From NCBI GenBank assembly GCA_000004985.1, contig GG738874.1: a DNA stretch of 64,000 nt; one strand, written 5' to 3'. Below are positions 5,199-46,798 of the stretch, one piece after another (positions within the stretch are counted from its first letter, which is position 1; each line of letters starts with the position of its first letter). This stretch comes from Naegleria gruberi. Its lineage: Eukaryota. Below the pieces are notes generated by a model. That model worked only from the letters and a program-made list of their open reading frames with translations, did no database searches and was not told where the DNA came from. A program made the position numbers and the translations under genes.

Positions 5199-6362
5199 TT
5201 AAAATTGACAATTTATCATTAAATCTGTTAGTTTCTGAGCTATCATTGATTGATAGCATCTTTTCAATGTTGTCTTCTCGAATAAACAATTAGAAATATA
5301 GTGGTTATTTTTCTCGTTACTATTCACTACATATTTAACCACTTGTGAAATGTCAAAATCAGATATCGACTTGATAATGTGATATTCTGACACATTTCCA
5401 TTACCTGTTCGTAAATAGTTAGATATAATTGTATTGACAACATCCCTCTCGTGATAATCGTTTACAATTTGTTCAAGTTCTGGCATTAATTGAGCTTCAA
5501 AAGGTCTTTCAAATTTGATATAATTCCTCAACTTTTTCATCATTAAATCTGGTTTGGTAAAGAGAAGAATTATTCTCGTATTCGAATGATTTCCAATCAA
5601 TTCCTTGTAGAGTTTCAAACTTTCGTCCATTCTATTAACCTTCTCATCTCCATAACATGTTTGATTAAATTCTGAAAGAGAAACTACATAAATCAAAACT
5701 GAAACTTGATTTTCCAAACAATATCTCCACTTTCGTCTTTCATGAATTTTTCCACCTGCTGTCACAAATGTCAATCTATTCTTATTAAAAATAACACTAT
5801 AATCAATTATTCCAGAAGATCCTCCCTTAATATAAATATCTGGAATAAACCTCTCTCGATTCTTAATTTTTGACACAAAAATGTCAACATTCTCAAATAA
5901 ATTCAATGTATCCTGATTAGTTCTATAAATCTTTCTAAATCTATCATCATTCCACAATGCAACAAGTGCATGATCATCAAAATTTCCATTCGGTACCTTT
6001 TCATTAATAATAAACTCAACTGTCCTATCACTCGATGACGATGACGATGAGTACAAAATTTGTTGAATGATAATTCGTGAAATTGTATTCGTATCGACGT
6101 GATAGAAAGAGTCGGAAGTTTTATCGATGGAAGTAAAATGTTCCTTCTTTCTATTTTCATATCGAATCATTTCACAGATGGTTGTCTTTCCACTTGATGT
6201 GTTTCCAAGGAGGACGAATCTCTTTTCTTCCACGTCGTCATTAGCAAGATTATTCGAATGGTTATTCGAAGGAGAAGACGAAATAAACGTGTTTTGAATT
6301 GCGTTACTGTTAACGACGTTGGCGTGTTGCTGTTGTTGAAGTGTTGAGAGCTTCCCACCCAT
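5199..6362 (-). CDS. Heterotrimeric G-protein alpha subunit, divergent.
   Basis: N-terminal MGGKLS is the MG..S myristoylation-type start typical of G-alpha. The P-loop LLGNTSSGKTTICEMI matches the G-alpha GxxxSGKST consensus. RRKWRYCLENQVSVLIYVVSLSEF matches the switch II/G3 region ([24 protein letters not shown]). RILLFTKPDLMMKKL matches the NKxD region (ILFLNKKDLF). Real ATG (CAT on plus) at 6360-6362. Single exon of 387 aa. Confidence 0.75.
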   Translation of the reverse strand: MGGKLSTLQQQQHANVVNSNAIQNTFISSSPSNNHSNNLANDDVEEKRFVLLGNTSSGKTTICEMIRYENRKKEHFTSIDKTSDSFYHVDTNTISRIIIQQILYSSSSSSSDRTVEFIINEKVPNGNFDDHALVALWNDDRFRKIYRTNQDTLNLFENVDIFVSKIKNRERFIPDIYIKGGSSGIIDYSVIFNKNRLTFVTAGGKIHERRKWRYCLENQVSVLIYVVSLSEFNQTCYGDEKVNRMDESLKLYKELIGNHSNTRIILLFTKPDLMMKKLRNYIKFERPFEAQLMPELEQIVNDYHERDVVNTIISNYLRTGNGNVSEYHIIKSISDFDISQVVKYVVNSNEKNNHYISNCLFEKTTLKRCYQSMIAQKLTDLMINCQF

Positions 6363-6529
6363 TTTTTTTTATCTGATTCTTTTCGAAAGGTTTCACTAGT
6401 AATGCTCGAATTGGAAGGAAGAGTCCAAAGATGGTCTTCCAGCTGCTGTTGGAATCTGTAAATCTTTAGCTTAATATTTATTACTGTTCGATACCAGCTT
6501 GGCTAGACAGTAAATTTTATTATTAAAAA

Positions 6530-6874
6530 ATGGCGGGAAAAGCTGTGAACGAATGTTTCTTCCCCATTTCGTTCACTATTGAGCAAAAGGAACTGAAAAA
6601 CTCGTCGACACCAGATGTGGTGGTGGCAAAAAAGCGCAGAAAAAAACGACACAAATATATATCAGGTGCATATCAAAGGTTGTTTGATTTTGAAACCAAC
6701 TTGTTCACTCGCTTTTTATCAATTGTCTTACCAAATGATGAAGATTTGAAAATAGTCCAGTGGTCATATATCCTTAGTGTCATTGTATTCCATCTAGTCT
6801 TCCAATTTATTTTACCGTGTTACCTCGCTTGCAAAGTGGAAGAAAAAGATATTTTGCAAGGGAAGCTATTGTGA
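6530..6874 (+). CDS. Small hypothetical ORF (114 aa, one hydrophobic segment) in the divergent intergenic region. It may not be a gene.
   Basis: Real ATG at 6530 but no recognisable domain. It sits between the starts of two divergently transcribed genes. Confidence 0.15.
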   Translation: MAGKAVNECFFPISFTIEQKELKNSSTPDVVVAKKRRKKRHKYISGAYQRLFDFETNLFTRFLSIVLPNDEDLKIVQWSYILSVIVFHLVFQFILPCYLACKVEEKDILQGKLL

Positions 6875-9690: not shown

Positions 9691-11277
9691 ATGTCAAGCG
9701 ATAACACTAATGGTGGAACAACCTCAAGTGGTCCAGTTCTCTCCCAATCGGCAACTGATGTCTCATCTCCAACCGAAATTAAAGCCAAAAAGAAGGTTGT
9801 CATTAATGCTGAACCAACCCACGGTCCAATGTCAGTAGCTTCCAACACTACAAAAACCTCTGCCTCTGCTAAAGGAGCTCTCAAAGTCAATACATGTTGT
9901 GGTGTTGTTGAACTGACACCTATGAAATTAGCCTGTTTGATTGGTATGGCTATTACTGTCGTTGCCTTTGTTGCTTTGGGTGTTATTTCAATTACAAGCT
10001 TTGTTTATTCGAGCAGTAAGAAAATTGACCTTTTAATTACCTATGCAGATATCAGATATTACAGATCACAAGCTATGGCTGCTGTCAAGATGGCTGCTTA
10101 TTCTAATGTATGTTTTATAATTATTTGATCAAACTGAACTGTTATTTCCACAAATTAACAATGTTGTCAACCTTTTAACAATGATGACAACTAACATTAA
10201 TTGATAACCAATAATTTAATGATGACAATTCAATAGGATTTTAATCAATACTATGATATCTACACTTCCAACAATAACAATTTAACAAACCTCATCACGT
10301 CGATCAGAACAATTTTCCAAAATGATGCCACAGCCAATGCCCTCTTCACCAAGACCACTCTGACAGCAAAGAGTAAATTGGAAGGTTTTAATACCTATAT
10401 CTTTGGTTTATTGAGACAAGGCAGTTATCAACAAGATGCTATTGACACAGTGAATAGTCAAGATTATAAGGACACTGATAATCTTTTCTATTCTGGTTTA
10501 ACTTCCCTATTGAACTATGTCGTTACTTCGGAACAATCCAAAGACAATAGTGTCATTGCTTCCAACCTAGTTCAATTGGTAATTATTGTGATTGCCTTGG
10601 TGATTGTTTTGCCAGTTTTAGTATTCGTCTTTACTTATGCCATCAATCGTGACTCACTCTATTTGGAAAAGATTAGACGTGCCAATTCCATCATGTTATT
10701 GGATACAATTGCTGATAGTAATTTACGTTCTCTCTTCAAAGCTCATTGTGAAAAGGAAAAGTCAACTGAAAACTTTTTACTCTTAGAAAAGATTCACAAC
10801 TATAAGGCCATGTGTGAAAGAGTCGACGATTTAAATATGAAATTATATGGAGATAGCACAATTTCTGATACTGCTAGTGCTTCTTCAAAGACTGATTCAA
10901 CTGCCACTGCTGAGTCAGTTCCAAAACTCAAGAAGGAACAAGTTGCCAAGTATGAAAAAGAGCTCAATGAAATGGAAGGTAAAAAGTATGAATTGGCCTT
11001 TGAAATTTACTCCTATCACTTGGATATCAACGGTGACATGGCTGCCAACGTAACCAAGAGCAAGTGTGACAAGGTTAAGGTTCAACTCGATAATTACAAT
11101 ACCAAACAAATCGAAAGTTTACCACTCGATTTATTCAAACAAATTGAAAAGGAAGTTTGTTTGACCATGATGGACACTCACAATAGATTCAAATCATCCA
11201 TTGCCTTCCAAAAGGAAATGAAAATTCACAAGCTTAACGTTGAAAAGATTAAGGCTAAGCATAAGAATAAGTTTTAA
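9691..11277 (+). CDS. Two-TM RGS-domain protein (regulator of G-protein signalling). Two exons: about 9691..10107 and 10237..11277, with a 129-nt phase-0 intron. Paralog of 45176..46798.
   Basis: The RGS core is LEKIRRANSIMLLDTIADSNLRSLFKAHCEKEKSTENFLLLEKIHNYKAMCE (S.ENL.F-type motif). Exon 1 has the TM helix KLACLIGMAITVVAFVALGVI, and a second TM helix lies just before the RGS domain. Donor AAT|GTATGT, acceptor CAATAG|GAT. The architecture is colinear with the unspliced paralog on the minus strand at 45176..46798. Confidence 0.75.
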
Positions 11278-11655: not shown

Positions 11656-14600
11656 TTATTGGGTATTGGCAAAGAGGTTGGAAACACTTCTATTGTTTGA
11701 GTAGAGGAGTGGATTGTTTTTCAAGTGTCTGTGATGTTTGTCATTGAGCAAATAGGTCTTGACAATTCCCTTTCCTTTCACATCAACTTCTCTCTCTTCA
11801 AAATCATATCCCAAATCGAAAACTCTTTCATAAGTTGATCTGGAGATTTGAATTCGTCCATTCTTTGAAGTGGATTCCATTCGAGAAGCAATATTGATGG
11901 TATCACCCCATAAATCGTAGGCAAACTTTTTCATTCCAATCACTCCAGCAACAACTGATCCTGTATTAATTCCAACTCGAATATTGATTTGTTGAGGTGG
12001 TGGAGAGGATGATTTCACCTTTAATTCATTATCTGTTTCCTTAACAACCTCCTCTTGTTCATTATTATCAACAGATTTGAGTCGATTTGAATTGAAATCA
12101 TTTATCACTCCAAATGTTTCAATTGCAAATTTTAAAACTCTTTCAGGATGATCACTTGTTGCAGCTCCAGGTAATCCACCCACTGCAAAATAGGCATCTC
12201 CAATTGTTTTGATCTTTTCCAAATCATATTTTTCAGTCAACATGTCAAATCCATTCACAATTGAGTTCAACATCATTACTAAATCAGTGGCTTGCATATT
12301 ACTACTTATGGCTGTAAATCCAACCATATCTGAAAAGAAACAAGTGATATCATCCAATTTTTCAGCAATGAATGTATGTCCACTTTTCAATCTTGAAGCA
12401 ACACTTGTTGGTAAGATATTCTTCAAGAGATTATCCGATTTTTGTTTCTCTTCACTCAATAAGGCATTTTGTTTCTTTTCAGAAGTTAAATCTTTCATTG
12501 TGACAATCAGAATATTTCTCATTGAACCTCTTTCACCTTGAATTTTGACAGTGAAGAGTGTTATTTTGCAAGGGAATTTGGTTTGATTTCTTCTGATACA
12601 ATCTAATTCAACAATTTCACATTTTCCATTTCCTTCTTCACTCTCCTTGCTGGATTGTTTCAATTGAACATCTTCATCATCTTGATCTTCATCCTTCTTA
12701 TCAGAATCTTTTCCACTCTTTTTGAAAATATACTTGATACACTTGTTGAGTTCATCTTGGTGTGTTGATTCAACCAATTGTGAAATTGAAGTTCCCAAAA
12801 CATCAATTGGTTTCATTCCAAACATTTTCAATGCAGAATAATTCAAAAATTCAATTTCATGATTCTCATTACAAATAATACTTCCTTCAACACTTGAATT
12901 GAAAACATTCTTCAAATCAGAAATGGATGAAGCGGAAGATGATGATGATTTGTCCTTCTTTTTCATTCTTGTACTCAATGAATTGGTATTGTTATAGAGG
13001 ATAAAGTTTCTCAATGTTTCATTCCTCTCTAAAACTTCAACTGGAATATATTGTGACATTAATCGAAGTGAATGTAATTGACCACAATAATTGGAGTAGA
13101 TGATATACATCAGAAAGAAGAAAACCATACACCCAACAATTTCCACACCTGCAAAGCTTATTACTACATCATAAGAGGGAGCTGTAGAGGAGGAAATGAA
13201 TGCCTTGATGAAAATTGTGAACTTGTTACTCAATGCTAGTGCCATTCTCATAGCAAGGTTATGCCGTATCCCTAAATCAGCTATTGGAAGAAGAATACCT
13301 TTTGGAGTTGCTGCCTTTTGAAGAGAATTTTGCTTTCTGGAGTCAGTCAATAATTGAGGAACCAGGGTCATGTAATCATTCAAAAGTGTTTCCAAACCGA
13401 TGCAGTACATCATATTTGTTTCTATTGTAAGAGTCATATTATTTTCTTGCAAATAGTCAGAGCAATTAGATGAAACGCCATGATTAATAAGTGAGTCAAC
13501 ACCTGGATACATTCCTAAAATTGGTCTGGTACCAACAGAGGCATCCCCATAAATTAATCTTGACCACATACTACTAAGAGTTGGTAATCTATTTGTTGCT
13601 CTGTCAAAGAGTACATTGAAATTTGTAACAGTATTGAATAATCTTGGATCACCATATGTAACATTTCTTTTGAAATTAACTGCCAATGGAGAAATATTGT
13701 TTGAAATTTCACTTGCAACAAAGTAGGTCATTACTTCACCTGTGTTAAATGCGATTCTCTGTACAGATGTTGCAGCTTGAATACTTAATCTTACATTGTT
13801 CATCACTCTACCAGCAGTTTGGGCATTGAAGTCGCTTTCATAATAGAACATGGCAATACTTGCACATGTAAATAAGGTAATCAGCGAAATCAAAATAATT
13901 GTTGAAATGTTTGATTTCATTTTGGCAAGTGAGAAAGTATTGTCAGCATTATTGGCAGTATCAGTTGTTTTGTTGTTGAGAGAGTGAAATATTTTTCCAA
14001 TCACATCTTTGCTCAAATGTTTTTCATATATTTTCACAATTTTTGTCATATGACTCATTTCAAATATCATATAACTCAAATAAGCAATACTGATCAAAAA
14101 GAATGCAACTAGAACTGCACCTGAATAATACACCAAATTTTGAGTTGTTAGATCTACTGCATCTGTTGATCTATCAAGATAACGGGCGCAAAAAGTATCA
14201 AAAGCCAGTGAAGCAGTTTCTCTATTCGCAAACAGGAACATGAAATTGTAATTCTTCAATGGGTGAAAGTACAAATCAGTTGCTGCAATATTTAGCAATA
14301 GAGTTTGATAGGACGGATCATAGTTATGGCTTGAAATATTTGTCAACAAGTTAATTGGAAAGGTGTCAATCATATTTTGGGTATACTTGATCATGTGGTT
14401 TGTAAATTCAAGAATGGATATATTCTTTTGACTTGCACTTCCTAAATCATACAAATTCAAATCTTTTGAATTTTCATTTGGAAAGTTACAAGTGTAAATG
14501 TTAGCAGAATAATCTGAATATACATCTACATCGAAAGAATTACTTTGACTCAATTTGATAAGATTCTTGTAAATATCAATATTGTCTTGCAATCGTTTGT

Positions 14601-21500: not shown

Positions 21501-23761
21501 AACTAATAGGCCATGGATACTCAAATAACATGAAGGTATTTACAAAATTTTGAGTGGCTCTAACATTTCTTAGAGCAGAATAAGGAGAAATACTTGGTTG
21601 ACAAACTTGTTGAAGGAAAGGCACTCCTGAAATTACTGCATCAGAGTAGTATGAACTCAGTGCTATGGAAGAAACAACAAGGCACAAGCAAACAAATATG
21701 TAGAGTAAACTAATTATAACTGTTGTAGAATTTGACCTTTGTGATGAAATTGCATTCTTGAAAATTTGCTCTTTCCTCATCTTGGGATTTTCAAATGCAC
21801 TTTCCATATCATCTTCATTTGGTTGTTCTTCTACTGGGAATAAGTATGGTTCAAAGTTGGCCTTGGTTTCGTGGAGAGGCATTACACGGTTAGTTCCTCT
21901 CTTATTACTAGTAGCATTACTAAACACAGAAGCTCTTCTCTTCTTTTTCATTTCCTCTTCTTCAATGGAGGAAGCTTCATTGTAATAGTATTGTGCTAAT
22001 TCTGAATTGAATTCAAAATTTTCCAAAAAATTTCCATATAATCTGAGAAGTGTCTTGTTATTCTTATTGTTGAAAATTAAATTTTGCAACGTATTTCTGC
22101 ATTGAGTGGTCAAAGCATAAATGGAACGATTAATCTTTTCAACAGATGAATAATTAATTCTCTCAGAGGCCATTTCTTTCCAAAAGTTTCTGTGAAGAAC
22201 CAACAAGTTATTTTGATTCTTTTCTAGAATATCTAATTGAGAGGTTAATTCAAATGAATTGCTTGTTGATTTGGATTTTAAATTGAATGATTCAATTTGT
22301 TTCATTTTCTCTCTGATTTTAAATTGTTGGAAAATGTTTGGATGTTGTGATGAGGCTCTTTTCAATAAACTCATTGAAAAGACACAATTATTTGAATCCA
22401 ACCATTGTGTTTGAATCAAGAGTGCTGAATAGATTAATATATCAACATTATTGAATGATTTTTGATGAGCTGCTCCTCTTATGAAGGACATGGCCAATTC
22501 ACAATCTTTCAATATTTGATTATTTTCAGTAGTGCTATTATTGTTAGTTGGATGATTTGTTTAGTGTAGAATTGGATAGACATGATTTGATGAATAATTT
22601 CAATAATGATAACTTGTTGAAATCTTCAAACATGTAATATAAATTCATTGCATTCTTTTCAATCAAAGTAAGTGGAGAAATGGTTCCATAATTTTCATGA
22701 CCTTCAATTCCATTCAATATCATATTTCTTGCTCTCTTCAATTGTAAACGTTGATAAAATTCCATTGTCAATGTGCCAATAGTAAAGAAAATGAAAATAA
22801 GAGCAAGTGTCATTAATGAAAATGCAATACCCATCATTTCAAAATTGGCCCTCTCAGAATCTGAAGATGAAGATGTTATGGATGATGAATTGACCAATGA
22901 AGAAACGAGTGAACCAATACTCGCACCAACTCTTGCTGACATTACACCAAAATACAATGAATTTTCAAATCTTCTCAAACATGGCATGCTATAGAACACC
23001 AAAACACAACAAATCAGTGAAACTAGTAAATGAAAAATTGCTGAAATGAAAATATAATTGGTTGGTAATAATTGAGACAATACCAATTGTAAAATACTCA
23101 AAGAACCAATCAAACTGAAAATGAATGGATTTTCAATCAACATTGGAATTTGAGATTCTGGATTTGAATTGCAAGTTATGAATTCTGATAATGGAAAGAC
23201 AAAAGTGACCAAAACTAAAATTGAAATAATTGAGAGAATTAACATGATCAAATTGGTGGTATCATCAATACATGCTTGATTAGGATATCTCATCAATGAA
23301 GCAATCATATCAGTAGATTCATCAGCATCATTCATCATCATTGTTGAACTACAATTGAGAAAACCAAGCAACACATAAACAAACAACAATGAGAATGGTT
23401 TTACAATCAAAGCACAATAAAAAGTGAAGTATTTCAATTTCTTATAATACTTGTTCTGTTTGTTGGCTAATCGAATTGAAATTACATAAAAAACAGCCAT
23501 TATTAATATAATTGCAATAAAAACAGAACCAATTCCAACAACACCCAAATAAGGAATCATTCTTGCAATCAAAGTCGTTGGAAAATTAAACGCATCAATT
23601 AAAATATAACTTCCAACTTTTCCCCAATTAAAATCTGAAAGAGTTGTCATGAAAATTAAACACCACATCCAATAAACATTCACAAATAAAAAGATTGAAT
23701 AATTTTTCCATCCCTTCTTTGCCTCACAATCTTGTAAAGTGATAATACTATTGGTGAGCAA
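18514..23761 (-). CDS. Receptor-type adenylyl cyclase, tandem copy 2. It is disrupted. A 5-nt deletion relative to copy 1 breaks the frame between 22512 and 22544. The 5' end is separated from the body by N-gaps and an inserted duplicate block.
   Basis: The first ~885 nt (18514-19398) and the whole catalytic and N-terminal TM parts are nearly identical to copy 1. The extracellular middle part is clearly diverged. Alignment of 22500-22560 with 15640-15720 shows 'attgttagttggatgatt' in copy 2 versus 'attgttagtattattggatgatt' in copy 1. Confidence 0.7.
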
Positions 23762-35868: not shown

Positions 35869-37875
35869 TTAGATATAATCCAAATCTGAATATTGTGAAC
35901 TAGTCAAAATGTTGACATCCGTGAAATGATTATTCTCCAATTTGTAAAGTAATCTCCTCCCCATCAAATTTTCAAACTTTTTATCCAAATTCCAATTCAC
36001 AAATGATTCTCTCACATTAAATAACATTGAATTCATTACCTGATTGACATCAAATTCATCCAAAGTATTAATGGCATGGAAAGTGATTGAAGATTCGTAT
36101 TCTGCTTCACTTTCTCCATAGTAATGTGAATGATAGCTGATTGAGTATCGATTTTGGATTTGTTTGAATCGTTCGAGGATGTAATTGAAAACTTGTTTTG
36201 GGTTTTTACGATTTCCATTGAAATCTGAAAAGTATTGAGAAAGTGCATTGGATGCTTCACCTTTGGAAACCTTTCGAATGAAGGAATCGACCTTTGTGAA
36301 GAGAACAATCTTTCGAATAGATGATTCGCCAAGTTCCTTCTTGGAAAACACTTGTTCGAAATAGGTTAAACTATCTAGCAATCTATTACCTGGTTTGGTT
36401 TCTGATTTGGAAGGTGAAATTAAATCTTCAAAACTTAACATGTCAATATCCGAAAGTGAAACTGTGAATATAATACATTTCAAATTTTGTTTTTCCAAAT
36501 ATGGAAGATAGAGAGCTCGTTTTTCTTTCCATCCAAAAGTTTCCAATAACAATAGCTTTCTAGTCACCAATTCTCTATTTTCCAAAGTTGGTTTTGTAAT
36601 ATCCTTCACTGGCATACTTTCCAAAGATAGAATTTTAGCCCTCACAATATCTTGTTTGGTCAACTCGGTAATTTTCTTCAATTTTTCAACTCTGCCATCA
36701 TTTAAAAAGTATTCAATATTCTCTCCCAATAGTGGAATTGGAGTTTTCCTCGAATTTCTCTCTCTATACGATTTTTGGACGAAAGGATGTTTCCACAATT
36801 GATCCATCACTTTGAAAAATTCCTTCTGCTTCCATAATCGTCTTAGAATTTGTTGAGATGATGAAACTGAGTTGTTATCTGATGAATTAACTGTCATTGA
36901 AGAACTTCCATTATTCGAATTTTGGCTTGTTTGAGGATTTAATGAGAAAATATTCGAAGGAGATTGGTTTCCATTCGGTGATGTCTTTCCATTCGTAGAA
37001 TTCACATTCGTATTCATTGAACTATTCGATAAATAATTAATTCTTGGAGAAACTGACTCTGGATGAATCATATTTTGAAATTGTTGAATTAAATCTGAAA
37101 ATTGTTGAGTAAATTCTGGTGAAGAATTTTGAATTTCCTCAAAATTGACTTCATGTTGTGAATGTACAAGGATTTTTAAACAGTAAATGCAATAGAGAAG
37201 TATTGAATCTCTATAGAATTTCAATTCTTCAGTTTTGTAATTGTAATCTCTCAAAATTTCCATCAAAGTTGCTAAAATAGGAAACTGTCAGAATTCAAAA
37301 TTATATTGACACTTACTTTTACCGCTATCTACACCTCCAAGAATGAGAACTAATTTACAATCTTGTAATCTTTTCAAATGTTCTTGATGTGAAATGCCAC
37401 TAATCAATTTTGAATAAATATTGAACTGGGTAGCTCTTGGAGTTTTCATTGCAGAACTTGAACTTCCAATATTTAATAATGAAGTTGATAAAGATTTACT
37501 CTTCCTGTCAGAATTGATGACTGACAGTTGTTCGACATTTGTTAGATTGAGTGTTGGCACTTTCGACACTTCGGAAGATTTTGTATTTTTCAAAGCATCA
37601 AAAACAGGATCTTCTGTTTTGACATCCGAAGTATTATTTGATGTTATCATGGATGTCAAAATAAATCTGCCAACTGACTGGCTTCTTTGATGTTTGGCAG
37701 GTTTTAATCCTTCCCTTCCGTTCTGTTGTTGTAAATTTGCAAGATTTGAATTCGAATTATTTAAAGTAAACGAAGACGAATCTACTTCTATTCGAATCAG
37801 ACTTTCAATTCCATTTGATAGAGAATCTCCAGCATTTTGTTGGTCAAGATCTGGTGATGAAAGTTTTATTCCCAT
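35869..37875 (-). CDS. Heterotrimeric G-protein alpha subunit. Two exons, about 37317..37875 and 35869..37271, with a 45-nt phase-1 intron at 37272..37316.
   Basis: The start is MGIKLSS. On the minus strand the intron reads GTAAGTGTCAATATAATTTTGAATTCTGACAGTTTCCTATTTTAG. Splicing restores the G-alpha P-loop LILGGVDSGKTTLMMEIL. Without splicing, the frame stops 11 codons after SGKSK. Downstream, YLPYLEKQNLKCIIFTVSLSD matches the switch II/G3 region and IVLFTKVDSF matches the NKxD region. Confidence 0.85.
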
Positions 37876-38216
37876 TTTTTTTGATTGTTTTCTACGACCT
37901 GTCAGTGACCTAGTCCACCAATCAAATAATTAATGACATTTCGCAGATTATCAACGTTTATCTCTGCAGTGAACACCATGCAGTTTTCAACACCATCACT
38001 GCAGAGATTATCTGGTACATCAGTAAAAAAACTGTAAATTGTTGCTGATTGAGTAATTTCCTCTTTGAGAATCTTTCAATAATTACAATACCAGAAATTG
38101 TTATAAGCAGGGTTCTCCACGTGGTTATAAGTTGCCAAGGTTGTGGCGATTTTTGCGCATATCCCAAGCGAATATCTTAAAGTTGTGCGGCATTTCATCA
38201 AAAAAAACGACTCTAC

Positions 38217-39834
38217 ATGACTTTTGGCATTTCATTGATGTCTTCAGAGACAATGGCCAATTCAACAATCTATGCTAATCAGACATATTGTGATGAAGCT
38301 CTTTTCAACTTGCCGTCATCAATATATTTGGACTCTATTCCACAAATCATAAACGGAGTTTGTCCTGACACCATTTTCACACCAATTTCATCGAGCTTGG
38401 TCCTATTGAACCATCTTATCATTGTCTTTGTGGGGCTAGCTGGTGTCATTTACAAACGCAACAATGCTCATATAAGATATAGAAGTCCAGTTTATTTGTA
38501 TTGGAGTATGTTTGCTAGTACTCTCCTTGTGGGTATTAGTTGTTTGAGGTTTATGATTGGGAGGACTATCTTTCCATGCCCGTTGCATGCTGTTACCTTC
38601 TTTATATTTCCACAAGTTTTAATGATGCCGTCCATTCTGAAATGTTTTAGAGTGTTTCTTCTATATAGGATAAATTTGGAAAAAAGTAAAGTTCACAATG
38701 AGGCTAGATTTTCAATTGCTGTTAAAGAAAAAGGCATAGAATTGGAGTCAAAGGAATTATCTGAAGGCTCTCCTGCTGTTGGTACGCCTGAATTGAATAC
38801 CAGTTCATCAAATATCATGTCAATTGCCACCGATGATGACAGATCAAGTGAAGCAGGTGAAGCACTGTCTGAAATTTCCACAACCCAAACTAGAAAAATC
38901 AAAATCCTTGAATTTCTAGCCAGTACCAAATTTGCCACCATCATTTACATATCCTTACTCATTTTCCATCTTTGTTTTTGGTTAATTTTTTCAGGAATTG
39001 ACCAAGCAATTTCCAATTCAGGAAATCCAGGCAAAACCATCGTTCTACAAGTTGGTTTACTAGATTTCACCAAAGGATGTGTCTCCTCATCCAATGCAGT
39101 CCTCCTCGTAGCAGCTCAATGCATCTTTTACTTGATTATTGAAATAATCGTCTTTGTCTTGTTTGCTTTTTTCACAGATCGAGATACTTGGGGAATGAAG
39201 AGAGAAACCTTTGTTCTGATTTCGTTTCAAGTGGTGGCTGCCATTTTATACATTGCTTTGGGGAGTATTGGGATTATTAAGACTCTGGTTGATTATTTTG
39301 TGGCGTATGCTCATGTGATTTTGATTTATGTTGGATTGGAATTGTGTGTGAATGTTGTGGCACCTGTTGGATATGCATTTATGATGGATTGGAAGGAGGG
39401 AAGAGGAGAGGAGATGGATACAGTTGGAGGGTTTTTGCAGGATAAAAAGAATGTTGAAAATTTGTTGGATTTTGCCAGAAGAAGGTAATTATTTTTTAAT
39501 TTTTTAATTTTTTTTTATTTTAATTTCCAAAATTAGTTATTGTCCAGAAAATGTCTTATTTTGGAGAGATGTTCAAAGATTTAAAAAATCCAACAAGAAG
39601 AATAGAAACAAAATGGCCCAAGTCCTCATTAACACCTACATGAAGCAAACTTCTCCTGTCGAATTGAATTTACCAAGTGAATTGAGTAAATTAATTCCAA
39701 ATTTAGAAATTCAAGCTAATGAAACAACTCCAGTCGATGCAAATATCTTCCAACAATTTGAATTGCATTGCTTGAATGATTTGTGTGATATTTTCACAAG
39801 ATTTAAGGCCTCCACCAAATATGGAAATAATTAA
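38217..39834 (+). CDS. Seven-TM receptor fused to a C-terminal RGS domain. Exons about 38217..39484 and 39537..39834, with a 52-nt phase-2 intron (GTAATT...AAATTAG).
   Basis: Seven hydrophobic helices are separated by a Ser-rich loop. The spliced junction LLDFARR|SYCPENVLFWRDVQRFKK reconstitutes the RGS core (SEENL.FW...FK pattern). The RGS C-terminal helices are AQVLINTYMKQTSPVELNL and IFQQFELHCLNDLCDIFTRF. Confidence 0.8.
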
Positions 39835-39866
39835 TATGTAACAATTTTATTTTTTTATGGAATAAT

Positions 39867-42403: not shown

Positions 42404-45020
42404 ATGGTTACCCAACTCGTTTTTACTTTTCTCTTCTTTTTCTTGTGTTTGGTTTCTTCTTCCTTCTCCTTTCCAACAAAAATTATTCACTTTACAGAAA
42501 TTAGTACAACAACACAAAATGTAGAAATTTACGGAGCATTCAACTACTTTTCGATATTTACATGGAAAGGGCTGGGAATTAAATCACTTTCACAATTAAA
42601 CATTTCGTCCAATGCACAACTTTCCGAAATATTTTCAAAATATCAAAGTTATGCATTACAACGAATAACAACAAACCAGCATGACAACCAGCAGCAGCAG
42701 AATAGTAAATTCACAATTGTTTGCTCTCACTTGTATCCATGTCGTAGAATTTGGAAAATTCTCGACTTGAATAGTAATTATTTCGAATTACTAATAATAC
42801 CCAACATGTATCCTGATTGTGTCCGTGGATCAGTATTGGAATTGGGTGATGGATTTTTGGCAACTTCAATGGATTTTGCTCGACTTGTTAGAGTGAATCA
42901 AGTTGCAACGAGGAAGGGTTTATTTAGAGAACATTATGATAATAGTATGATACAAATAGATACAAGGTATGATCCTTATGATTTCTATTCGATTCCACTT
43001 GTGCCCACACAATTACTTCTGTCTGTGCATGCAGCAGCAGCCATCATCAGCAACAAGTGTTGACATGTCAACAATATCTGAGAATGAAATCAGATCATTC
43101 TCAGATATTGTTGAGGATCATCTTCATTTCATTAACGATCAGGGATTGAGTTGTAAAAGTAGTCAAATTCATGATTCGTATGTTTGGGATAAATTACATG
43201 GTCTAGTAGATGTAGGATCGAGTCATTTGACCTTCCTCAACAATCTCACAACATCTATAGTGGGATTTCCTGTCAATATTACATATAATAGAGATCCATT
43301 AGTAGAATATAGAACATTTATAATTGAGGGAGGAGGAAGAAATGTCTTTAGACTAAGTACTCCAGATTATGTCAACACATTGTTATGGAATTCTACATGT
43401 CACTTTTGTTCATCCACTGAATGTTTGGCAGAATCTATGGCAAGTAACGATTATTTCATTTTCGTATATTCTGTACCTAGTATTATATATTATTTGAGTT
43501 TTTTTGGATTGGGAATGTTCAGAAAACCATCAATGAGAAATAGATTATTAATTCCTTATATATTACCAATATGTATAATTGTCTTTGAAGTTTGCTGGTC
43601 GGCATTCATTGTGAATACTTGTAAATCAGTATTCTCAATTGTTTCCTTGTTAATTCTTGGATTTTTTACAATTCTAAATGGAATTGTTGTTCTTCGAATT
43701 AAGGGAGCACAAATATTGTATCATAGAATGATTGGGAGGGAAAATAGTTCCAAATTAATCAAATTACTAGTTTCGGAAAGGCTGGGATGGATATTATGTA
43801 TTATCATTCCAAGTATTTTCATGTTGATTTATGGAATACCTCCATTGTTTGTTTCCATCTTTGATTTCCACAAGATTTTATACATTAATAATTTGATATT
43901 TGTTGCCTTTGCATGTATTGGATCAATTACTGCCTTGTTGTATAACACTATTGATTTACTATTTAATTGGAATCATCTCCGAGAAAAAGGTTTGTTAATT
44001 ATATTATAATAATATTTAAATTAATAATTACTATAATTATTATTATTATTATTATTATTGTAAATTAATTTAGGAATATTTTACTATTTGTTTTTCCAAG
44101 ATCCTCTCTATCTTCGATTAGATACTCTATCAATATCCTTAACAATTGTTCCCCTAGCCATCTATATCGGAATTAATGTCATCTACTCACTTTCCTACCA
44201 ATCTGTTGCTAGTAATATTATACGATTAATTATCTCAACATGGCTCTTACTATCATGTGGCGGCTTTGCAATGATTGTTGAGATGGTTTACATGTTATTA
44301 AACTCGAGGAAAGTATCATCCCCGAATAGAGATTCAAAAACTGATGATATCAAATATCTACTATTGAAGAATGAAAAGTTTACCTCTCTTTTCAAAGAGT
44401 ATTGTGAAGGAGAATTAAGCGTTGAAAATTACTTCTTCTATCAGGAATTGATCAATATTCAGAATGCAAATTGTGTTTCCAAAGAACAATTACAAAAGTT
44501 GGAATCCAAATTCATCAACACTTATGCAGTATTCCGTGTAAATATTTCAAATAATTGTAGGAAGGAATTCTACAAGACTTTAAAAGAGGTTAAGCAATCT
44601 ACAACCTCTAGTTTTGTTCTTGATCGTTATCTTGAAGAGAAACCAAAAAGTGATCAAGACAGGAAACGAGAATTTAAAAGCTTAATTGTACATCAATCCC
44701 AAGATAACCTAATGGAGCATGTTGACATTTCAGAGAATGTTGTAAATACTCCACTCTCATCACCACCAATAAGGAGTCACAGCAGTAGCAATGCTTCTTA
44801 TCTGAAGGATAGTTTGAGTATTAAAGTTTGTGGCACGATTGAAAATTTACTGCTCGGCATTCAATTGAATATTCAAGAGACTTTCACCCGATTCCAAAAT
44901 ACTAGAGAATACAGACAATGTCTTGCTGAGAGCAGTGAATTATCAGCAGTGGCCTCTACATCAACTACGCCCAACTCCAACAACAGGAAGAACCTTGCAG
45001 TAAGATTTGATGATGAATAA
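42404..45020 (+). CDS. Second 7TM-RGS fusion receptor. It has a signal peptide and a ~190-aa N-terminal ectodomain. Three exons, about 42404..42966, 43058..43989 and 44074..45020.
   Basis: The signal peptide is MVTQLVFTFLFFFLCLVSSSFSF. The first intron (GTATGA...CAACAAG) is tentative. The second intron (GTTTGT...(ATT)n...TTAATTTAG, phase 1) is firm and joins HLREK|G|IFYY. TM helices span exons 2 and 3. The RGS core is LFKEYCEGELSVENYFFYQELINIQN. Confidence 0.7.
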
Positions 45021-45175
45021 AATCATCGTGATGAGGTTTTTTTAAGGAATTTTTTGTTAAGGTTTTTTTGAAGTTGCAACAACACTGTGTAAAGTTTTGA
45101 TGGCCATTATTACGACCTAAAAGACTTCATAAGGAACCAAGAGTGGAACATTTTTGTACTGTATCAATGATTTAT

Positions 45176-46798
45176 TTAAAAATCGTATTTCTTCTTTTTG
45201 AGTTTATCAACCTTAATCTTATCAATCTTCATTTCACGTTGGAAAGCAAGAGATTGTTTGAATCTGTGGTGAGTATCCATCATTACCAAACAAGTTTCCT
45301 TTTCCAAAATATTGAACATATCTTCTGGTAGTGTTTCAATTTGCTTATCGTTGTAACTGTCAAGCTTATCCTTGACAGCATCAGTAAGAACATGAGAAAT
45401 ATTGACAGCCATATCACCAGTAACTTCCAAAAATTCAGTAAATATCTCAAAAGCAACTTCATACTTTTTGGCTTCAACTTCAGCATATTCTTTTTCAAGT
45501 GGGGAAAGCTTCTTTTTTCCAGAGTGGGCTGAATCACCTGAAACACCTGAAATTTCACTAGAAACATCACTTTGTACATTGCTTTCTCCGAATAATCTCA
45601 TTTGCAAGTCAATGGAACGTTCGCACAATGATCTATAATAATGAATCTTTTCCAAGAGTAAAAAGTTTTCAGTTGACTTTTCCTTTTCACAATGTATCTT
45701 AAATAATGTTCTCAATCCATCATCCTCCATAGTGTCCATCAACATGACAGCATTGGCACGACGAATCTTCTCCAAATATAATGAGTCACGGTTAATGGCA
45801 TAAGTAAAGACAAATACAATGATTGGCAAAATGACGAATAGTGAAACGGCAATGACAATCAATTGAACCAAAGTAATGGCCAGAACATTCTTGTCTTTGG
45901 TACTTTCTTTCTCTTGTACAAAGGTGACCAATTTATCGAGACCTTCTTGGAAAGTTGTCTTGATTGTATTGTATGATGTTGAACTCAGTCTTGTTTTGGC
46001 ATCTTCTGGTTGTGTTCTGATAATTAGTAATATCTGAGAATTTGCTCCATCCCAATTATTTGAAGCCTCAACAGTTGTAGAGTTAAACATGGTCTGAATG
46101 GAAGCATCATCCACGTTCTTTAAAATTGTTTGTAAGGTTTTTTTCAGTGTTTGAGTAGAGTTTTTATACTCTTCCTGAACTAGTAATCTCTGATCTTCTG
46201 ATGAGTAACCAGTATAAGTATACTTTAAAACTAGAGCATTGGAGCTTTCAAAGATGGAAGTAACTTTACCAACAGCAATTAAAATATCGGTTGACTTGGT
46301 TGTGGTAGCAACGAATGCAGCAACAGCTACGCCAGCCAATACTAACAAACCAATAACTGTCACCATCATACCTAGTAAACAAGCCAATTTCATTGAAGTT
46401 AGCTCAACAACACCACAACATGTTCGCAAAGTAATTTTACTCTGACTGAAAGAACTTCCAGACCTTCCACTTTCGCTATGATTCACAAAACCAACTTGAG
46501 ATTGAGCAGCTGTTGTTTGTTTTGCTGTTGTAGTTGGTGATGCAATAGTGACCTTCTTTGAGTTATTTGTTGATGGAAGTGCTGTTATATTCATTGTGTT
46601 ATTTGGTTTGTTGTTGTCGAGTGGAGTTGTTGATTGTGGAAATGATGGTGAAGAGGACGTTGTTGGATTATTTGCTATTGTTGTTGTTGTATTGTTATTA
46701 TTGTTGGAGAGATAGGAAGTGGCATTATTGGCTTCGTTTGAGGCAGGAGCTAGTGAAGGTGAGCCTGTTGTGGAGGCTGTTGATGGTGGTGTATTCAT
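45176..46798 (-). CDS. Two-TM RGS-domain protein of 540 aa with a single exon. Paralog of 9691..11277.
   Basis: The RGS core LEKIRRANAVMLMDTMEDDGLRTLFKIHCEKEKSTENFLLLEKIHYYRSLCE is near-identical to the paralog. TM1 is KLACLLGMMVTVIGLLVLAGVAVAAFV and TM2 is LAITLVQLIVIAVSLFVILPIIVFVF. The N-terminus is Asn/Thr/Ser-rich. Confidence 0.8.
   Translation of the reverse strand: MNTPPSTASTTGSPSLAPASNEANNATSYLSNNNNNTTTTIANNPTTSSSPSFPQSTTPLDNNKPNNTMNITALPSTNNSKKVTIASPTTTAKQTTAAQSQVGFVNHSESGRSGSSFSQSKITLRTCCGVVELTSMKLACLLGMMVTVIGLLVLAGVAVAAFVATTTKSTDILIAVGKVTSIFESSNALVLKYTYTGYSSEDQRLLVQEEYKNSTQTLKKTLQTILKNVDDASIQTMFNSTTVEASNNWDGANSQILLIIRTQPEDAKTRLSSTSYNTIKTTFQEGLDKLVTFVQEKESTKDKNVLAITLVQLIVIAVSLFVILPIIVFVFTYAINRDSLYLEKIRRANAVMLMDTMEDDGLRTLFKIHCEKEKSTENFLLLEKIHYYRSLCERSIDLQMRLFGESNVQSDVSSEISGVSGDSAHSGKKKLSPLEKEYAEVEAKKYEVAFEIFTEFLEVTGDMAVNISHVLTDAVKDKLDSYNDKQIETLPEDMFNILEKETCLVMMDTHHRFKQSLAFQREMKIDKIKVDKLKKKKYDF

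What the first reader, a model, noticed from the sequence alone, without database searches (positions are those of the whole stretch)
5199..46798. Dense G-protein signalling neighbourhood: 2 G-alpha, 4 RGS (two 7TM-RGS fusions), 2 receptor adenylyl cyclases within ~42 kb
Eight genes of one signalling pathway are interleaved with only a few unrelated genes. They are the G-alpha genes at 5199-6362 and 35869-37875, the TM-RGS paralogs at 9691-11277 and 45176-46798, the 7TM-RGS fusions at 38217-39834 and 42404-45020, and the tandem cyclases at 11656-17136 and 18514-25145. Eukaryotic genomes rarely cluster pathway genes. The receptor, its GAP (RGS) and the G-alpha it would act on lie next to cAMP-producing effectors. 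This suggests either a co-regulated module or a subtelomeric hotspot where this family expands. 7TM-RGS fusions like plant AtRGS1 are themselves uncommon outside plants and some protists.
Basis: partly seen in the sequence, partly recalled or inferred. Interest (0 to 1): 0.75.

Follow-up and report, generated by a model that had tools for sequence, protein, structure and literature searches.

The report
Subtelomeric G-protein signalling gene cluster
The last ~60 kb of a Naegleria gruberi chromosome arm really does hold eight genes from three hugely expanded signalling families (G-alpha, RGS, adenylyl cyclase), but it looks like a chromosome-end zone where such families pile up rather than a working pathway module.

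Summary
The window is Naegleria gruberi NEG-M, from a 401,612-bp scaffold. It ends in (TTTGGG)n, the published candidate telomere repeat.

All eight genes sit at the stated coordinates.
- Two G-alpha genes pass Pfam (150 and 127 bits).
- Two tandem PAS adenylyl cyclases pass Pfam (177-179 bits).
- RGS support is uneven: 7TM-RGS1 54 bits, TM-RGS1 25.4 (cutoff 23.9), TM-RGS2 22.1, 7TM-RGS2 14 (21.8 with its insert removed).

Only the cyclases (90% nucleotide identity) and the two 2-TM RGS genes (45% amino-acid identity) are local paralogs.

With published N. fowleri family sizes (201 genes), about 0.2-0.5 such genes are expected per 42 kb. Six or seven independent placements therefore exceed chance. 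Homologs in N. lovaniensis and N. fowleri have none of these families among 33 neighbouring genes.

The pathway-module reading is weak:
- Both G-alphas belong to a fast-evolving subfamily lacking the catalytic Arg and Gln, so they are poor RGS substrates.
- The cyclases are single-domain homodimeric enzymes.
- 7TM-RGS proteins are common in Naegleria.

Two hints of G-alpha/RGS linkage in other genomes remain unexplained.

Best reading: a subtelomeric expansion zone. Interest is moderate to low.

The parts
5199..6362 (-). G-alpha1: single-exon, 387-aa G-alpha-like protein. It starts MGGKLS (myristoylation-type). P-loop is GNTSSGKT, switch I is IKGGSSG (Arg to Lys), switch II is TAGGK (Asp to Thr, Gln to Lys), and G4 is TKPD.
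   Evidence: Pfam G-alpha 150 bits. Residue alignment to N. fowleri G-alpha7 (6ne6) and Gq. Subfamily alignment. A 54-60% identical metagenomic homolog, P0014, keeps the same substitutions.
9691..11277 (+). TM-RGS1: 485 aa, exons 9691-10107 and 10237-11277. Two TM segments flank a ~150-aa loop, followed by a divergent C-terminal RGS domain with a ~50-aa insert.
   Evidence: Splice model. Pfam RGS 25.4 bits against a cutoff of 23.9. Hydropathy. 45% amino-acid identity to TM-RGS2. hhalign against the 7TM-RGS RGS profile gives 61% probability.
11656..17136 (-). Cyclase 1: 1826 aa (EFC43411 / NAEGRDRAFT_68800). It has about 11 hydrophobic segments, TPR_TmcB, PAS and a single class III cyclase domain with all the adenylyl-cyclase catalytic residues.
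   Evidence: Exact match in NCBI. Pfam. Hydropathy. Alignment to both the C1 and C2 domains of AC9.
18514..25145 (-). Cyclase 2: tandem paralog of cyclase 1. It is interrupted in the assembly by N gaps at 23775-23824 and 24896-24945, by an inserted contig, and by a 5-bp deletion frameshift near 22513-22543.
   Evidence: Self-BLAST: 90% identity over 5263 bp, and the 5' end 24946-25037 is 97.8% identical to 16913-17004. Frameshift. Mosaic identity with dS 0.08-0.10 at the ends, 0.7-1.1 in the middle, and dN/dS about 0.2.
23825..24895 (.). A 1071-bp contig between two 50-N gaps, 99.4% identical to 30463-31529 (the 5' end and upstream region of the NHL/EGF gene). It is probably a misplaced allelic contig and not part of cyclase 2.
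35869..37875 (-). G-alpha2: 653 aa, exons 37875-37317 and 37271-35869. It starts MGIKLS and has a ~170-aa N-terminal extension. P-loop is GGVDSGKT (split by the intron), switch II is ETFGW (no Gln), and G4 is TKVD. No GenBank model was found for it.
   Evidence: Pfam G-alpha 127.5 bits on exon 2. Splice model. PDB alignment. The spliced sequence is not in the protein collection, and the order of UniProt accessions leaves no slot for it (inference).
37876..38216 (.). A 341-bp intergenic region shared by the divergently transcribed G-alpha2 and 7TM-RGS1 genes. It could act as a bidirectional promoter.
   Evidence: Sequence read directly. The promoter function is inferred only.
38217..39834 (+). 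7TM-RGS1: 521 aa, exons 38217-39484 and 39537-39834, with seven TM segments and a C-terminal RGS domain. The GenBank model (P0008, 411 aa) reads into the intron and lacks the RGS exon.
   Evidence: Pfam RGS 54.2 bits. Hydropathy. Homologs P0009-P0012 share LLDFARRSYCPE..W.DIQR.K across the splice junction.
42404..45020 (+). 7TM-RGS2: about 813 aa with a signal peptide, a ~300-aa extracellular region, seven TM segments and a divergent RGS domain carrying an ~85-aa insert. Exons are 42404-42966 (junction uncertain), 43058-43989 and 44074-45020.
   Evidence: Pfam RGS 14.2 bits as it stands, 21.8 bits with the insert removed. Best PDB hit is RGS5 at E=0.45. The single-sequence AF2 model was unusable, pLDDT 39.8.
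45176..46798 (-). TM-RGS2: 540 aa (EFC43416 / NAEGRDRAFT_68810). It is an inverted paralog of TM-RGS1 with two TM segments and a divergent RGS domain.
   Evidence: Exact NCBI match. Pfam RGS 22.1 bits against a cutoff of 23.9. 45% amino-acid and 68% nucleotide identity to TM-RGS1.
49972..50747 (+). Frame-shifted EGF-repeat ORF fragments related to the NHL/EGF gene at 25530-31076. Probably a pseudogene remnant.
56870..57457 (+). Telomere-associated repeat, 90.7% identical to 62076-62661, which directly abuts a telomere array. It lies at the edge of the 4488-N gap.
62700..63076 (+). (GGGTTT)n telomere-type array of 63 copies, ending at a 50-N gap.
   Evidence: TTTGGG is the published candidate N. 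gruberi telomere repeat (PMC3622300).
63658..64000 (+). Second (GGGTTT)n array of 57 copies, running to the last base of the window.

Best explanation
The interval is a real, locally exceptional concentration of members of three lineage-expanded Naegleria signalling families. It lies in the terminal ~60 kb of a chromosome arm.

The most likely origin is the usual behaviour of subtelomeres: local duplication, ectopic exchange, and tolerance of fast-evolving lineage-specific paralogs. Shown steps:
- One old tandem duplication of a PAS adenylyl cyclase, since homogenised at both ends by gene conversion.
- One old inverted duplication of a 2-TM RGS gene.
- Independent placement of two unrelated 7TM-RGS genes and two distantly related G-alpha-like genes.

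The genes are probably all functional signalling components, with clean ORFs and purifying selection where it could be measured. They are not a dedicated receptor-GAP-G-alpha-effector circuit.

Shown here: gene identities, duplication history, telomere proximity, lack of catalytic residues in the G-alphas, and absence of comparable clustering around homologs in two other Naegleria genomes. Inferred: that subtelomeric location is the cause of the clustering.
For: - Organism and scaffold.
- Telomere repeats in the correct orientation at the window end.
- A telomere-associated repeat, AT-rich gene-poor DNA, EGF pseudogene fragments and gaps lie distal to the cluster.
- Cyclase pair: 90% nucleotide identity, dS 0.7-1.1 in the middle and 0.08-0.10 at the ends, dN/dS about 0.2.
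- TM-RGS pair: 45% amino-acid identity, inverted, 34 kb apart.
- G-alpha1/G-alpha2 and 7TM-RGS1/7TM-RGS2 show no BLASTP similarity to each other.
- Family sizes in the sister species are very large (13 G-alpha, 108 RGS, 80 cyclases).
- Enrichment over uniform placement.
- Controls: 0 of 33 neighbouring genes around homologous G-alpha or 7TM-RGS genes in N. lovaniensis and N. fowleri belong to these families.
- The G-alpha subfamily evolves fast. Syntenic N. fowleri and N. lovaniensis orthologs share only 49% identity.
Against: - Genome-wide N. gruberi counts and positions could not be obtained, so enrichment at chromosome ends in general is untested.
- Gaps of 649 and 4488 N separate the telomere-bearing contigs from the gene-bearing sequence, and two telomere arrays are stacked. 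At least one small telomeric contig is therefore mis-scaffolded, and the distance to the true end is uncertain.
- A conserved housekeeping gene (an ExoIII/APE-type nuclease, 31426-32538) sits inside the cluster.
- The best N. lovaniensis homologs of G-alpha1 and 7TM-RGS1 lie only ~30 kb apart on one contig, about 0.2% likely by chance.
- A Logan contig has a G-alpha-like gene next to a TM-RGS-family gene.
- These last two hints of conserved G-alpha/RGS linkage are not explained by a pure hotspot model.
Confidence: 0.6

Rival explanations
1. Co-regulated functional module. The 7TM-RGS and TM-RGS proteins act as receptor GAPs on the neighbouring G-alphas, which in turn control the neighbouring cyclases. 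Linkage is kept by selection for co-expression or co-inheritance.
For: - Eight of about 15 genes come from one nominal pathway.
- G-alpha2 and 7TM-RGS1 are divergent neighbours sharing 341 bp.
- N. fowleri 7TM-RGS domains do act as GAPs on some G-alphas (PMC9283941).
- All four RGS domains keep the GAP-critical Asn (read from the sequences).
Against: - Both G-alphas lack the Arg finger and the catalytic Gln that an RGS domain stabilises.
- The cyclases are single-domain homodimeric enzymes with PAS sensors. This is not the C1/C2 type that binds G-alpha.
- There is no microsynteny in N. lovaniensis or N. fowleri.
- A 341-bp intergenic region is ordinary in this compact genome.
- Seven unrelated genes are interleaved.
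Confidence: 0.12
2. Chance. The three families are so large in N. gruberi that a window like this is expected somewhere in 41 Mb, once tandem duplicates are discounted and the post-hoc choice of window is allowed for.
For: If the pairs are collapsed to five independent placements and the families total 400-500 genes, the genome-wide corrected probability rises to 0.13-0.36.
Against: With six or seven independent placements the corrected probability is 5e-6 to 3e-2 across all assumed family sizes. Four control neighbourhoods in other Naegleria genomes show 0 of 33 neighbours from these families.
Confidence: 0.13
3. Conserved pairing of catalytically inert G-alpha-like proteins with membrane RGS proteins. 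The TKxD, no-Arg, no-Gln G-alpha subfamily works with 2-TM or 7-TM RGS proteins as binding partners rather than GAP substrates. Their genes tend to stay linked, and the cyclases are bystanders.
For: - Both G-alphas in the window belong to this subfamily.
- Each has an RGS gene within 0.3-3.3 kb.
- On Logan contig L007, a subfamily G-alpha (DFGGS, TKPD) is the convergent neighbour, 436 bp away, of a 2-TM protein homologous to TM-RGS1 and TM-RGS2 (tblastn 2e-14).
- The N. lovaniensis subfamily member 003200 lies ~30 kb from the closest 7TM-RGS1 homolog, 003184.
Against: - The syntenic pair N. fowleri 002682 / N. lovaniensis 002998 and the environmental contig L008 have no RGS neighbour.
- Gene orientation and spacing differ between the cases.
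- The L007 RGS-like domain has lost the key Asn and gets no Pfam hit.
- The sample of neighbourhoods is very small.
Confidence: 0.12
4. Assembly artefact. The apparent duplication and density come from collapsed or mis-scaffolded haplotypes at a poorly assembled scaffold end.
For: There are five N gaps. A 99.4% duplicate contig is inserted inside cyclase 2, and two telomere arrays are stacked.
Against: Cyclase 1 and 2 differ by 10% overall and by dS of about 1 in the middle, far beyond allelic divergence. The other six genes lie in gap-free sequence and are mutually divergent.
Confidence: 0.03

Closest known systems
Naegleria fowleri G-protein signalling repertoire (Bosch, Jeck & Siderovski 2022, PMC9283941)
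   Same: The same families and architectures are present: 7TM proteins with a C-terminal RGS domain, many other RGS proteins, PAS-containing and multi-TM CYCc cyclases, and multiple G-alphas. The best PDB hit for G-alpha1 is N. fowleri G-alpha7 (6ne6).
   Different: That paper does not mention genomic clustering. It reports that the switch-1 Gly and switch-2 Trp are conserved in the N. fowleri G-alphas. The two G-alphas here lack the catalytic Arg and Gln, and G-alpha2 also lacks those two features.
Arabidopsis AtRGS1 / GPA1 (7TM-RGS acting as GAP on a self-activating G-alpha)
   Same: The architecture is the same, with seven TM segments followed by a cytoplasmic RGS domain that keeps the GAP Asn.
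   Different: No sequence similarity was found in the 7TM part (no Pfam hit). GPA1 is a competent GTPase, whereas the neighbouring G-alphas here lack the residues needed for hydrolysis. The plant genes are not linked.
Subtelomeric multigene-family regions (for example yeast, trypanosomatid and apicomplexan subtelomeres; general knowledge, and the introduction of PMC3418195 listed)
   Same: The region is close to telomere repeats. It contains tandem and inverted paralogs, gene conversion between copies, pseudogene fragments, fast-evolving membrane or sensory proteins, and poor assembly.
   Different: Several different families that belong to one nominal pathway are mixed here, rather than one family being amplified. 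A housekeeping nuclease gene lies inside the region.
Plant extra-large G proteins (XLGs) and other atypical G-alphas (review PMC8584482, listed; the comparison rests on my own knowledge)
   Same: These are G-alpha-fold proteins with an N-terminal extension (as in G-alpha2) and with catalytic residues replaced.
   Different: There is no evidence of common descent. The Naegleria subfamily has its own signature ([TS]KxD, YH[IV]xN, and a short C-terminal extension). Its biochemistry is untested.
Homodimeric class III adenylyl cyclases (for example mycobacterial Rv1625c-type enzymes; PDB hits)
   Same: A single catalytic domain carries both metal-binding Asp residues, the Lys/Asp adenine-specifying pair and the Asn/Arg transition-state pair.
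   Different: The Naegleria enzymes are much larger, with about 11 hydrophobic segments, a TPR_TmcB domain and a PAS domain. Their regulation is unknown.

Membership tests
Heterotrimeric G-protein alpha subunit (Pfam PF00503) | Profile match above the curated cutoff (48.8 bits), spanning the Ras-like and helical domains | tested here: met
   G-alpha1 scores 150 bits over profile positions 7-331 of 333. G-alpha2 exon 2 scores 127.5 bits over positions 41-329.
Heterotrimeric G-protein alpha subunit (Pfam PF00503) | P-loop GxxxxGK[ST] and an N-terminal MGxxxS acylation signal | tested here: met
   P-loops are GNTSSGKT and GGVDSGKT. N-termini are MGGKLS and MGIKLS.
Catalytically competent, RGS-sensitive G-alpha | Switch-I arginine finger and switch-II DxxGQ glutamine | tested here: not met
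   G-alpha1 has Arg to Lys and DVGGQ to TAGGK. G-alpha2 has Arg to Lys and DVGGQ to ETFGW. The same positions vary across the whole subfamily.
Catalytically competent, RGS-sensitive G-alpha | NKxD guanine-specificity motif and TCAT (G5) motif | tested here: not met
   The motifs are TKPD/TKVD and IKSIS/INTLD. TKxD is a tolerated G4 variant in other GTPases (my own knowledge), so nucleotide binding is not excluded.
RGS domain (Pfam PF00615) | Profile match above the curated cutoff (23.9 bits) | tested here: inconclusive
   7TM-RGS1 scores 54.2 (met). TM-RGS1 scores 25.4 (met). TM-RGS2 scores 22.1 (just under). 7TM-RGS2 scores 14.2, or 21.8 without its insert (not met). PDB sequence searches were negative or weak. 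hhalign of the TM-RGS profile against the 7TM-RGS profile gives 61%. The AF2 models were too poor to use.
RGS domain (Pfam PF00615) | Hallmark motifs: F..F...E.S.EN..F; the GAP Asn (RGS4 N128); and the C-terminal ..D...RF..S helix | tested here: met
   Read directly from the four sequences. The EN blocks are CPENVLFW, STENFLLL (twice) and SVENYFFY. The Asn blocks are ELNL, AANV, AVNI and RVNI. The C-terminal blocks are DIFTRFKAS, DTHNRFKSS, DTHHRFKQS and ETFTRFQNT.
7TM-RGS receptor GAPs (AtRGS1-like architecture; the N. fowleri 7TM RGS family) | Seven transmembrane segments directly followed by a cytoplasmic RGS domain | tested here: met
   Hydropathy shows seven segments in both proteins. Homologs P0009-P0012 share the same architecture and carry Pfam RGS hits.
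7TM-RGS receptor GAPs (AtRGS1-like architecture; the N. fowleri 7TM RGS family) | GAP activity on a cognate G-alpha | not testable with these tools
   This needs biochemistry, such as the BODIPY-GTP or SPR assays used in PMC9283941.
Class III adenylyl cyclase | Cyclase homology domain with two metal-binding Asp residues, a Lys/Asp adenine pair, and an Asn/Arg transition-state pair | tested here: met
   Pfam 177-179 bits. FSDMVGFT, KTIGDAYF and YDLWGDTINIASRMES align to both the C1 and C2 domains of AC9.
G-alpha-regulated transmembrane adenylyl cyclase (mammalian AC1-9 type) | Two different catalytic domains (C1 and C2) in one chain, forming the G-alpha-s/G-alpha-i binding grooves | tested here: not met
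   Each protein has a single catalytic domain.
Selected functional gene cluster (co-regulated pathway module) | Linkage conserved in related species | tested here: inconclusive
   No window protein other than the query's own homolog was found in four N. lovaniensis and N. fowleri loci, and 0 of 33 neighbours belong to the three families. However, the G-alpha1 and 7TM-RGS1 homologs are ~30 kb apart in N. lovaniensis, and a G-alpha plus TM-RGS pair occurs on L007.
Selected functional gene cluster (co-regulated pathway module) | Co-expression of members | not testable with these tools
   No expression data were reachable. The gene identifiers were not found in the paper library.
Subtelomeric multigene-family region | Lies within tens of kb of terminal telomere repeats in the correct orientation | tested here: met
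   (GGGTTT)n lies at 62700-63076 and at 63658-64000, the window end. The repeat identity comes from PMC3622300. Caveat: gaps and stacked arrays leave the exact distance uncertain.
Subtelomeric multigene-family region | Local paralogs, gene conversion and pseudogene fragments | tested here: met
Subtelomeric multigene-family region | Genome-wide enrichment of these families at chromosome ends | not tested
   N. gruberi gene positions are not indexed in the tools.

The most novel reading that the evidence does not exclude
Naegleria and its relatives have a distinct, fast-evolving subfamily of G-alpha-fold proteins that have lost the catalytic Arg and Gln. Its signature is [TS]KxD, YH[IV]xN, and a short C-terminal extension. 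These proteins would work as non-hydrolysing partners of membrane-anchored RGS proteins, with the RGS domain serving as a docking or effector module rather than a GAP. The genes for the two partners tend to remain physically linked. This subtelomeric cluster is where several such pairs arose.
Probability: 0.1. Interest if true: 0.6.

Novelty: new member of a known kind. Interest (0 to 1): 0.33.

Why it matters
If the cluster is just a subtelomeric expansion zone, its value is mainly descriptive.
- It shows where the very large Naegleria signalling families (about 200 genes in N. fowleri) are being generated.
- It corrects three gene models: an unannotated G-alpha, a 7TM-RGS model missing its RGS exon, and a disrupted cyclase.

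The more interesting by-product is that both G-alphas belong to a conserved but rapidly evolving subfamily without the hydrolysis residues. One such gene sits next to a TM-RGS-family gene in another genome. If that linkage holds genome-wide, it would point to a non-GAP role for RGS domains in a deep-branching eukaryote. That would bear on how G-protein signalling without classical GPCR activation works.

Tried and rejected
1. A homolog search with a two-sequence G-alpha alignment returned only three hits. Low-complexity words probably saturated the candidate list.
2. A 2506-aa chimeric query built from six masked window proteins returned nothing.
3. Walking along the N. gruberi scaffold failed because N. 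gruberi genes are not indexed.
4. Published N. gruberi family counts could not be retrieved. The Fritz-Laylin 2010, Anantharaman 2011 and Bradford 2013 papers are not held, and the supplements were empty.
5. Structure route for the weak RGS domains: the single-sequence and two-sequence AF2 models had pLDDT 39.8 and 52.7. Foldseek on the better model gave only meaningless helical-bundle hits.
6. PDB sequence and profile searches for the TM-RGS domain were negative.
7. X500 and P529 have no informative PDB or Pfam match.
8. The idea that G-alpha1 and G-alpha2, or 7TM-RGS1 and 7TM-RGS2, are local duplicates was rejected.
9. The idea that the cyclase pair is an assembly duplicate was rejected.
10. 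The first exon junction of 7TM-RGS2 could not be fixed. Many GT..AG combinations keep the frame open, and a sequencing frameshift is equally possible.

Full report
**Source.** Five intron-less ORFs in the window match GenBank/UniProt proteins of Naegleria gruberi exactly, all on a 401,612-bp scaffold. Examples are EFC43411 / NAEGRDRAFT_68800 and EFC43416 / NAEGRDRAFT_68810. GC content is about 33% and ORFs are long with few short introns.

**Checking the observation.** All eight genes exist at the stated coordinates.
- G-alpha1 (5199-6362, minus strand) scores 150 bits against Pfam G-alpha.
- G-alpha2 (35869-37875, minus strand) has a 45-nt GTAAGT..TTTTAG intron inside the P-loop codons. Spliced, it gives a clean 653-aa ORF, and exon 2 scores 127.5 bits.
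- The two cyclases each carry TPR_TmcB, PAS and one Guanylate_cyc domain at 177-179 bits.
- 7TM-RGS1 needs intron 39485-39536 removed. The junction then reads LLDFARRSYCPENVLFWRDVQRFK and RGS scores 54.2 bits. The same motif spans the junction in four homologs. The GenBank model (P0008, 411 aa) runs into the intron and lacks the RGS domain.
- TM-RGS1 scores 25.4 bits (cutoff 23.9) and TM-RGS2 scores 22.1.
- 7TM-RGS2 scores only 14.2 bits, or 21.8 when its ~85-aa insert is cut out.
- PDB sequence searches, profile searches and AF2 models did not add support for these weak domains. A profile-profile comparison of the TM-RGS family with the 7TM-RGS RGS family gave 61% probability.
- By eye, all four domains have the three RGS motif blocks, including the Asn equivalent to RGS4 N128.
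- Hydropathy gives seven TM segments in both 7TM-RGS proteins (7TM-RGS2 also has a signal peptide and a ~300-aa ectodomain) and two in the TM-RGS pair.

I rate the observation confirmed, with two of the four RGS assignments 'probable' rather than proven.

**Which are local duplicates.**
- Cyclase 1 and cyclase 2 are a tandem pair, 90% identical over 5.2 kb.
- Identity along the pair is mosaic: 96-100% at both ends and 70-85% in the central region, which holds several membrane segments. Synonymous divergence (dS) is 0.08-0.10 at the ends and 0.7-1.1 in the middle, with dN/dS about 0.2.
- This is an old duplication with recent gene conversion, and both copies are under purifying selection. It is not a haplotype artefact.
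- In the assembly, cyclase 2 is interrupted by two 50-N gaps and by a 1071-bp contig that is a 99.4% copy of the neighbouring NHL gene's 5' end, probably a misplaced allele. It also has a 5-bp frameshift in an AAT-rich tract.
- TM-RGS1 and TM-RGS2 share 45% amino-acid identity and are inverted, 34 kb apart.
- G-alpha1/G-alpha2 and 7TM-RGS1/7TM-RGS2 give no BLASTP hit to each other. G-alpha1 is not among the best 25 matches of G-alpha2 in a G-alpha panel.
- That leaves six or seven independent placements, not eight.

**Is it more than chance?**
- I could not count the families in N. gruberi.
- The sister species N. fowleri has 13 G-alpha, 28 7TM-RGS, 80 other RGS and 80 cyclase genes, 201 in total (PMC9283941). 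N. gruberi has 15,727 genes (PMC6366073).
- For 200-500 family members in 41 Mb, the expectation is 0.2-0.5 per 41.6 kb.
- The genome-wide corrected Poisson probability is 5e-6 to 2e-3 for seven members, 2e-4 to 3e-2 for six, and up to 0.36 for five.
- As an empirical control, I looked at ±10 kb around homologous genes in other Naegleria genomes: N. lovaniensis 7TM-RGS C9374_003184, N. lovaniensis G-alphas 003200 and 002998, and N. fowleri G-alpha FDP41_002682. None of the 33 neighbouring genes is a G-alpha, RGS or cyclase. tblastn with all window proteins found only the query's own homolog in each locus.
- The density here is therefore exceptional, not a general rule of Naegleria genome organisation.

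**Where the cluster sits.**
- The window ends in (GGGTTT)n: 63 copies at 62700-63076 and 57 copies at 63658-64000, the last base.
- TTTGGG is the candidate telomere repeat reported for N. gruberi scaffold ends (PMC3622300). The G-rich strand runs toward the window end, as expected for a right chromosome end.
- 56870-57457 is 90.7% identical to 62076-62661, which directly abuts the first array. A telomere-associated repeat therefore lies on both sides of the 4488-N gap.
- From 46.8 kb outward there is gene-poor DNA, frame-shifted EGF fragments related to the NHL/EGF gene, an NHL-BTB gene, and sequence at about 20% GC.
- Two stacked arrays mean at least one small telomeric contig is mis-scaffolded.
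- On this assembly, the cluster lies between roughly 10-16 kb (distal edge) and 52-57 kb (proximal edge) from a chromosome end.

**Does it look like a working pathway?**
- Alignment to solved G-alphas shows that G-alpha1 has Lys for the switch-I arginine finger and TAGGK for DVGGQ. G-alpha2 has Lys for the finger and ETFGW for DVGGQ. Both have TKxD instead of NKxD.
- An exhaustive search with G-alpha1, names for the best hits and an alignment place both proteins in a Naegleria/heterolobosean subfamily. Its features are [TS]KxD, YH[IV]xN in place of TCAT, no arginine finger, and K/W/R/D/S/T in place of the catalytic Gln.
- Members include N. gruberi 66226, 73162 and 49275, N. lovaniensis 003200 and 002998, N. 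fowleri 002682, and environmental sequences.
- A 54-60% identical environmental homolog keeps G-alpha1's exact substitutions, so this is a maintained state and not decay.
- The subfamily evolves fast. Syntenic N. fowleri and N. lovaniensis orthologs share only 49% identity.
- RGS domains accelerate hydrolysis by stabilising the G-alpha's own Arg and Gln (established knowledge). These G-alphas are therefore poor candidates for GAP substrates.
- Each cyclase has a single catalytic domain that aligns to both the C1 and C2 domains of AC9 and carries both sets of catalytic residues. It is a homodimeric adenylyl cyclase with a PAS sensor, not the C1/C2 type with G-alpha docking grooves.
- The divergent G-alpha2/7TM-RGS1 pair shares 341 bp, which is unremarkable in a compact genome.
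- 7TM-RGS proteins are abundant in this genus and widespread in protists (PMC3971589).

**What does not fit a pure hotspot model.**
- In N. lovaniensis, the best homolog of G-alpha1 (003200, at 600.7-601.9 kb) and the best homolog of 7TM-RGS1 (003184, at 568.9-570.6 kb) lie ~30 kb apart on contig PYSW02000017.1. For a genome of about 30 Mb (my own knowledge) that is roughly 0.2% likely by chance. None of the genes seen around them is shared with this window.
- On a 10.9-kb Logan contig (L007, GC 34%), a subfamily G-alpha (DFGGS, TKPD) is the convergent neighbour, 436 bp away, of a 551-aa protein. That protein has the same two-TM topology as TM-RGS1 and TM-RGS2 and clear homology to them (tblastn 2e-14). 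Its RGS-like domain gets no Pfam hit and has Thr at the GAP-Asn position.
- Other subfamily members have no RGS neighbour.
- These are anecdotes, but they keep open the possibility that inert G-alpha-like proteins and membrane RGS proteins are linked partners.

**Verdict.** The families and architectures are known, and I found no published mention of the cluster itself. I file it as a new instance of a known kind of region, with moderate to low interest. The non-catalytic G-alpha subfamily and its possible linkage to membrane RGS genes is the part worth following up.

Noticed in passing
window 62700-63076 and 63658-64000: Two (GGGTTT)n arrays of 63 and 57 copies, the second running to the last base of the window. 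TTTGGG is the published candidate telomere repeat of N. gruberi. Two stacked arrays separated by a 50-N gap imply that a small telomeric contig is mis-scaffolded.
   Followed up: yes
window 56870-57457 and 62076-62661: A 590-bp repeat at 90.7% identity. One copy abuts a telomere array and the other lies at the edge of the 4488-N gap. It is probably a telomere-associated sequence.
   Followed up: partly
window 35869-37875 (-): G-alpha2 appears to be missing from the GenBank/UniProt annotation. The spliced 653-aa product is not in the protein collection, and the run of UniProt accessions D2VIU2..D2VIV3 leaves no slot for it.
   Followed up: partly
window 38217-39834 (+): The deposited model of 7TM-RGS1 (P0008, 411 aa) reads through the donor site into the intron and ends at ...LDFARRR, so the RGS exon (39537-39834) is not annotated.
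   Followed up: yes
window 11656-17136 vs 18514-23774: Mosaic divergence between the tandem cyclases. dS is 0.08-0.10 in the N-terminal 7-TM part and in the PAS/catalytic part, but 0.7-1.1 in the central multi-TM/loop region (amino acids ~640-1340), with dN/dS about 0.2. This indicates gene conversion at both ends of an old duplicate. The central region may be the ligand-sensing part.
   Followed up: partly
window 23825-24895: A contig between two 50-N gaps inside cyclase 2 is a 99.4% copy of 30463-31529 (the NHL/EGF gene start and its upstream region). It is probably a misplaced allelic contig.
   Followed up: yes
window 22513-22543: Cyclase 2 has a 5-bp deletion relative to cyclase 1 in an AAT-rich low-complexity tract, which breaks the reading frame. 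This is either a sequencing error or a very recent inactivation, since the rest of the gene is under purifying selection.
   Followed up: partly
window 528-2996 and 3466-5193 (+): Two adjacent genes encode very Lys/Ser-rich proteins (822 and 575 aa) with related C-terminal ends (...RINRI.PQ.V.Q..P...LR.LIAS..K). They are tandem paralogs of unknown function.
   Followed up: no
window 5199-6362, 35869-37875; L003 10001-11155; L007 7402-8517: The G-alpha-like proteins of this subfamily share a short C-terminal extension beyond the usual G-alpha end (for example ...KRCYQSMIAQKLTDLMINCQF, ...RRLLYKLENNHFTDVNILTSS, ...RLFMNINCFNDVTFKFIEE, ...LELRLRKTLIDITIVNT). Its meaning is unknown.
   Followed up: no
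L007 7402-8517 (+) and 8953-10608 (-): On a Logan contig (SRR15442450, GC 34%), a Gln-less G-alpha-like gene is the convergent neighbour of a 2-TM protein homologous to TM-RGS1 and TM-RGS2 (tblastn 2e-14). This is a second case of G-alpha/TM-RGS adjacency, in another organism.
   Followed up: partly
L001 and L003 (N. lovaniensis PYSW02000017.1, 558.9-611.9 kb): The closest N. lovaniensis homologs of 7TM-RGS1 (C9374_003184) and G-alpha1 (C9374_003200) are ~30 kb and 16 locus tags apart, yet none of the other genes seen there matches a gene of this window.
   Followed up: partly
window 49972-50747 and 50951-53152 (+): Frame-shifted EGF-repeat fragments are followed by an NHL-repeat/BTB gene whose NHL part is a 168-bp tandem array (5.9 copies, 86% identical). 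Both are related to the large NHL/EGF surface-protein gene at 25530-31076.
   Followed up: no
L002 4469-4663: The metagenomic contig carrying the closest 7TM-RGS1 homolog (35% identity) has a second, partial 7TM-RGS-like ORF directly downstream. This suggests tandem duplication of this family in another organism as well.
   Followed up: no
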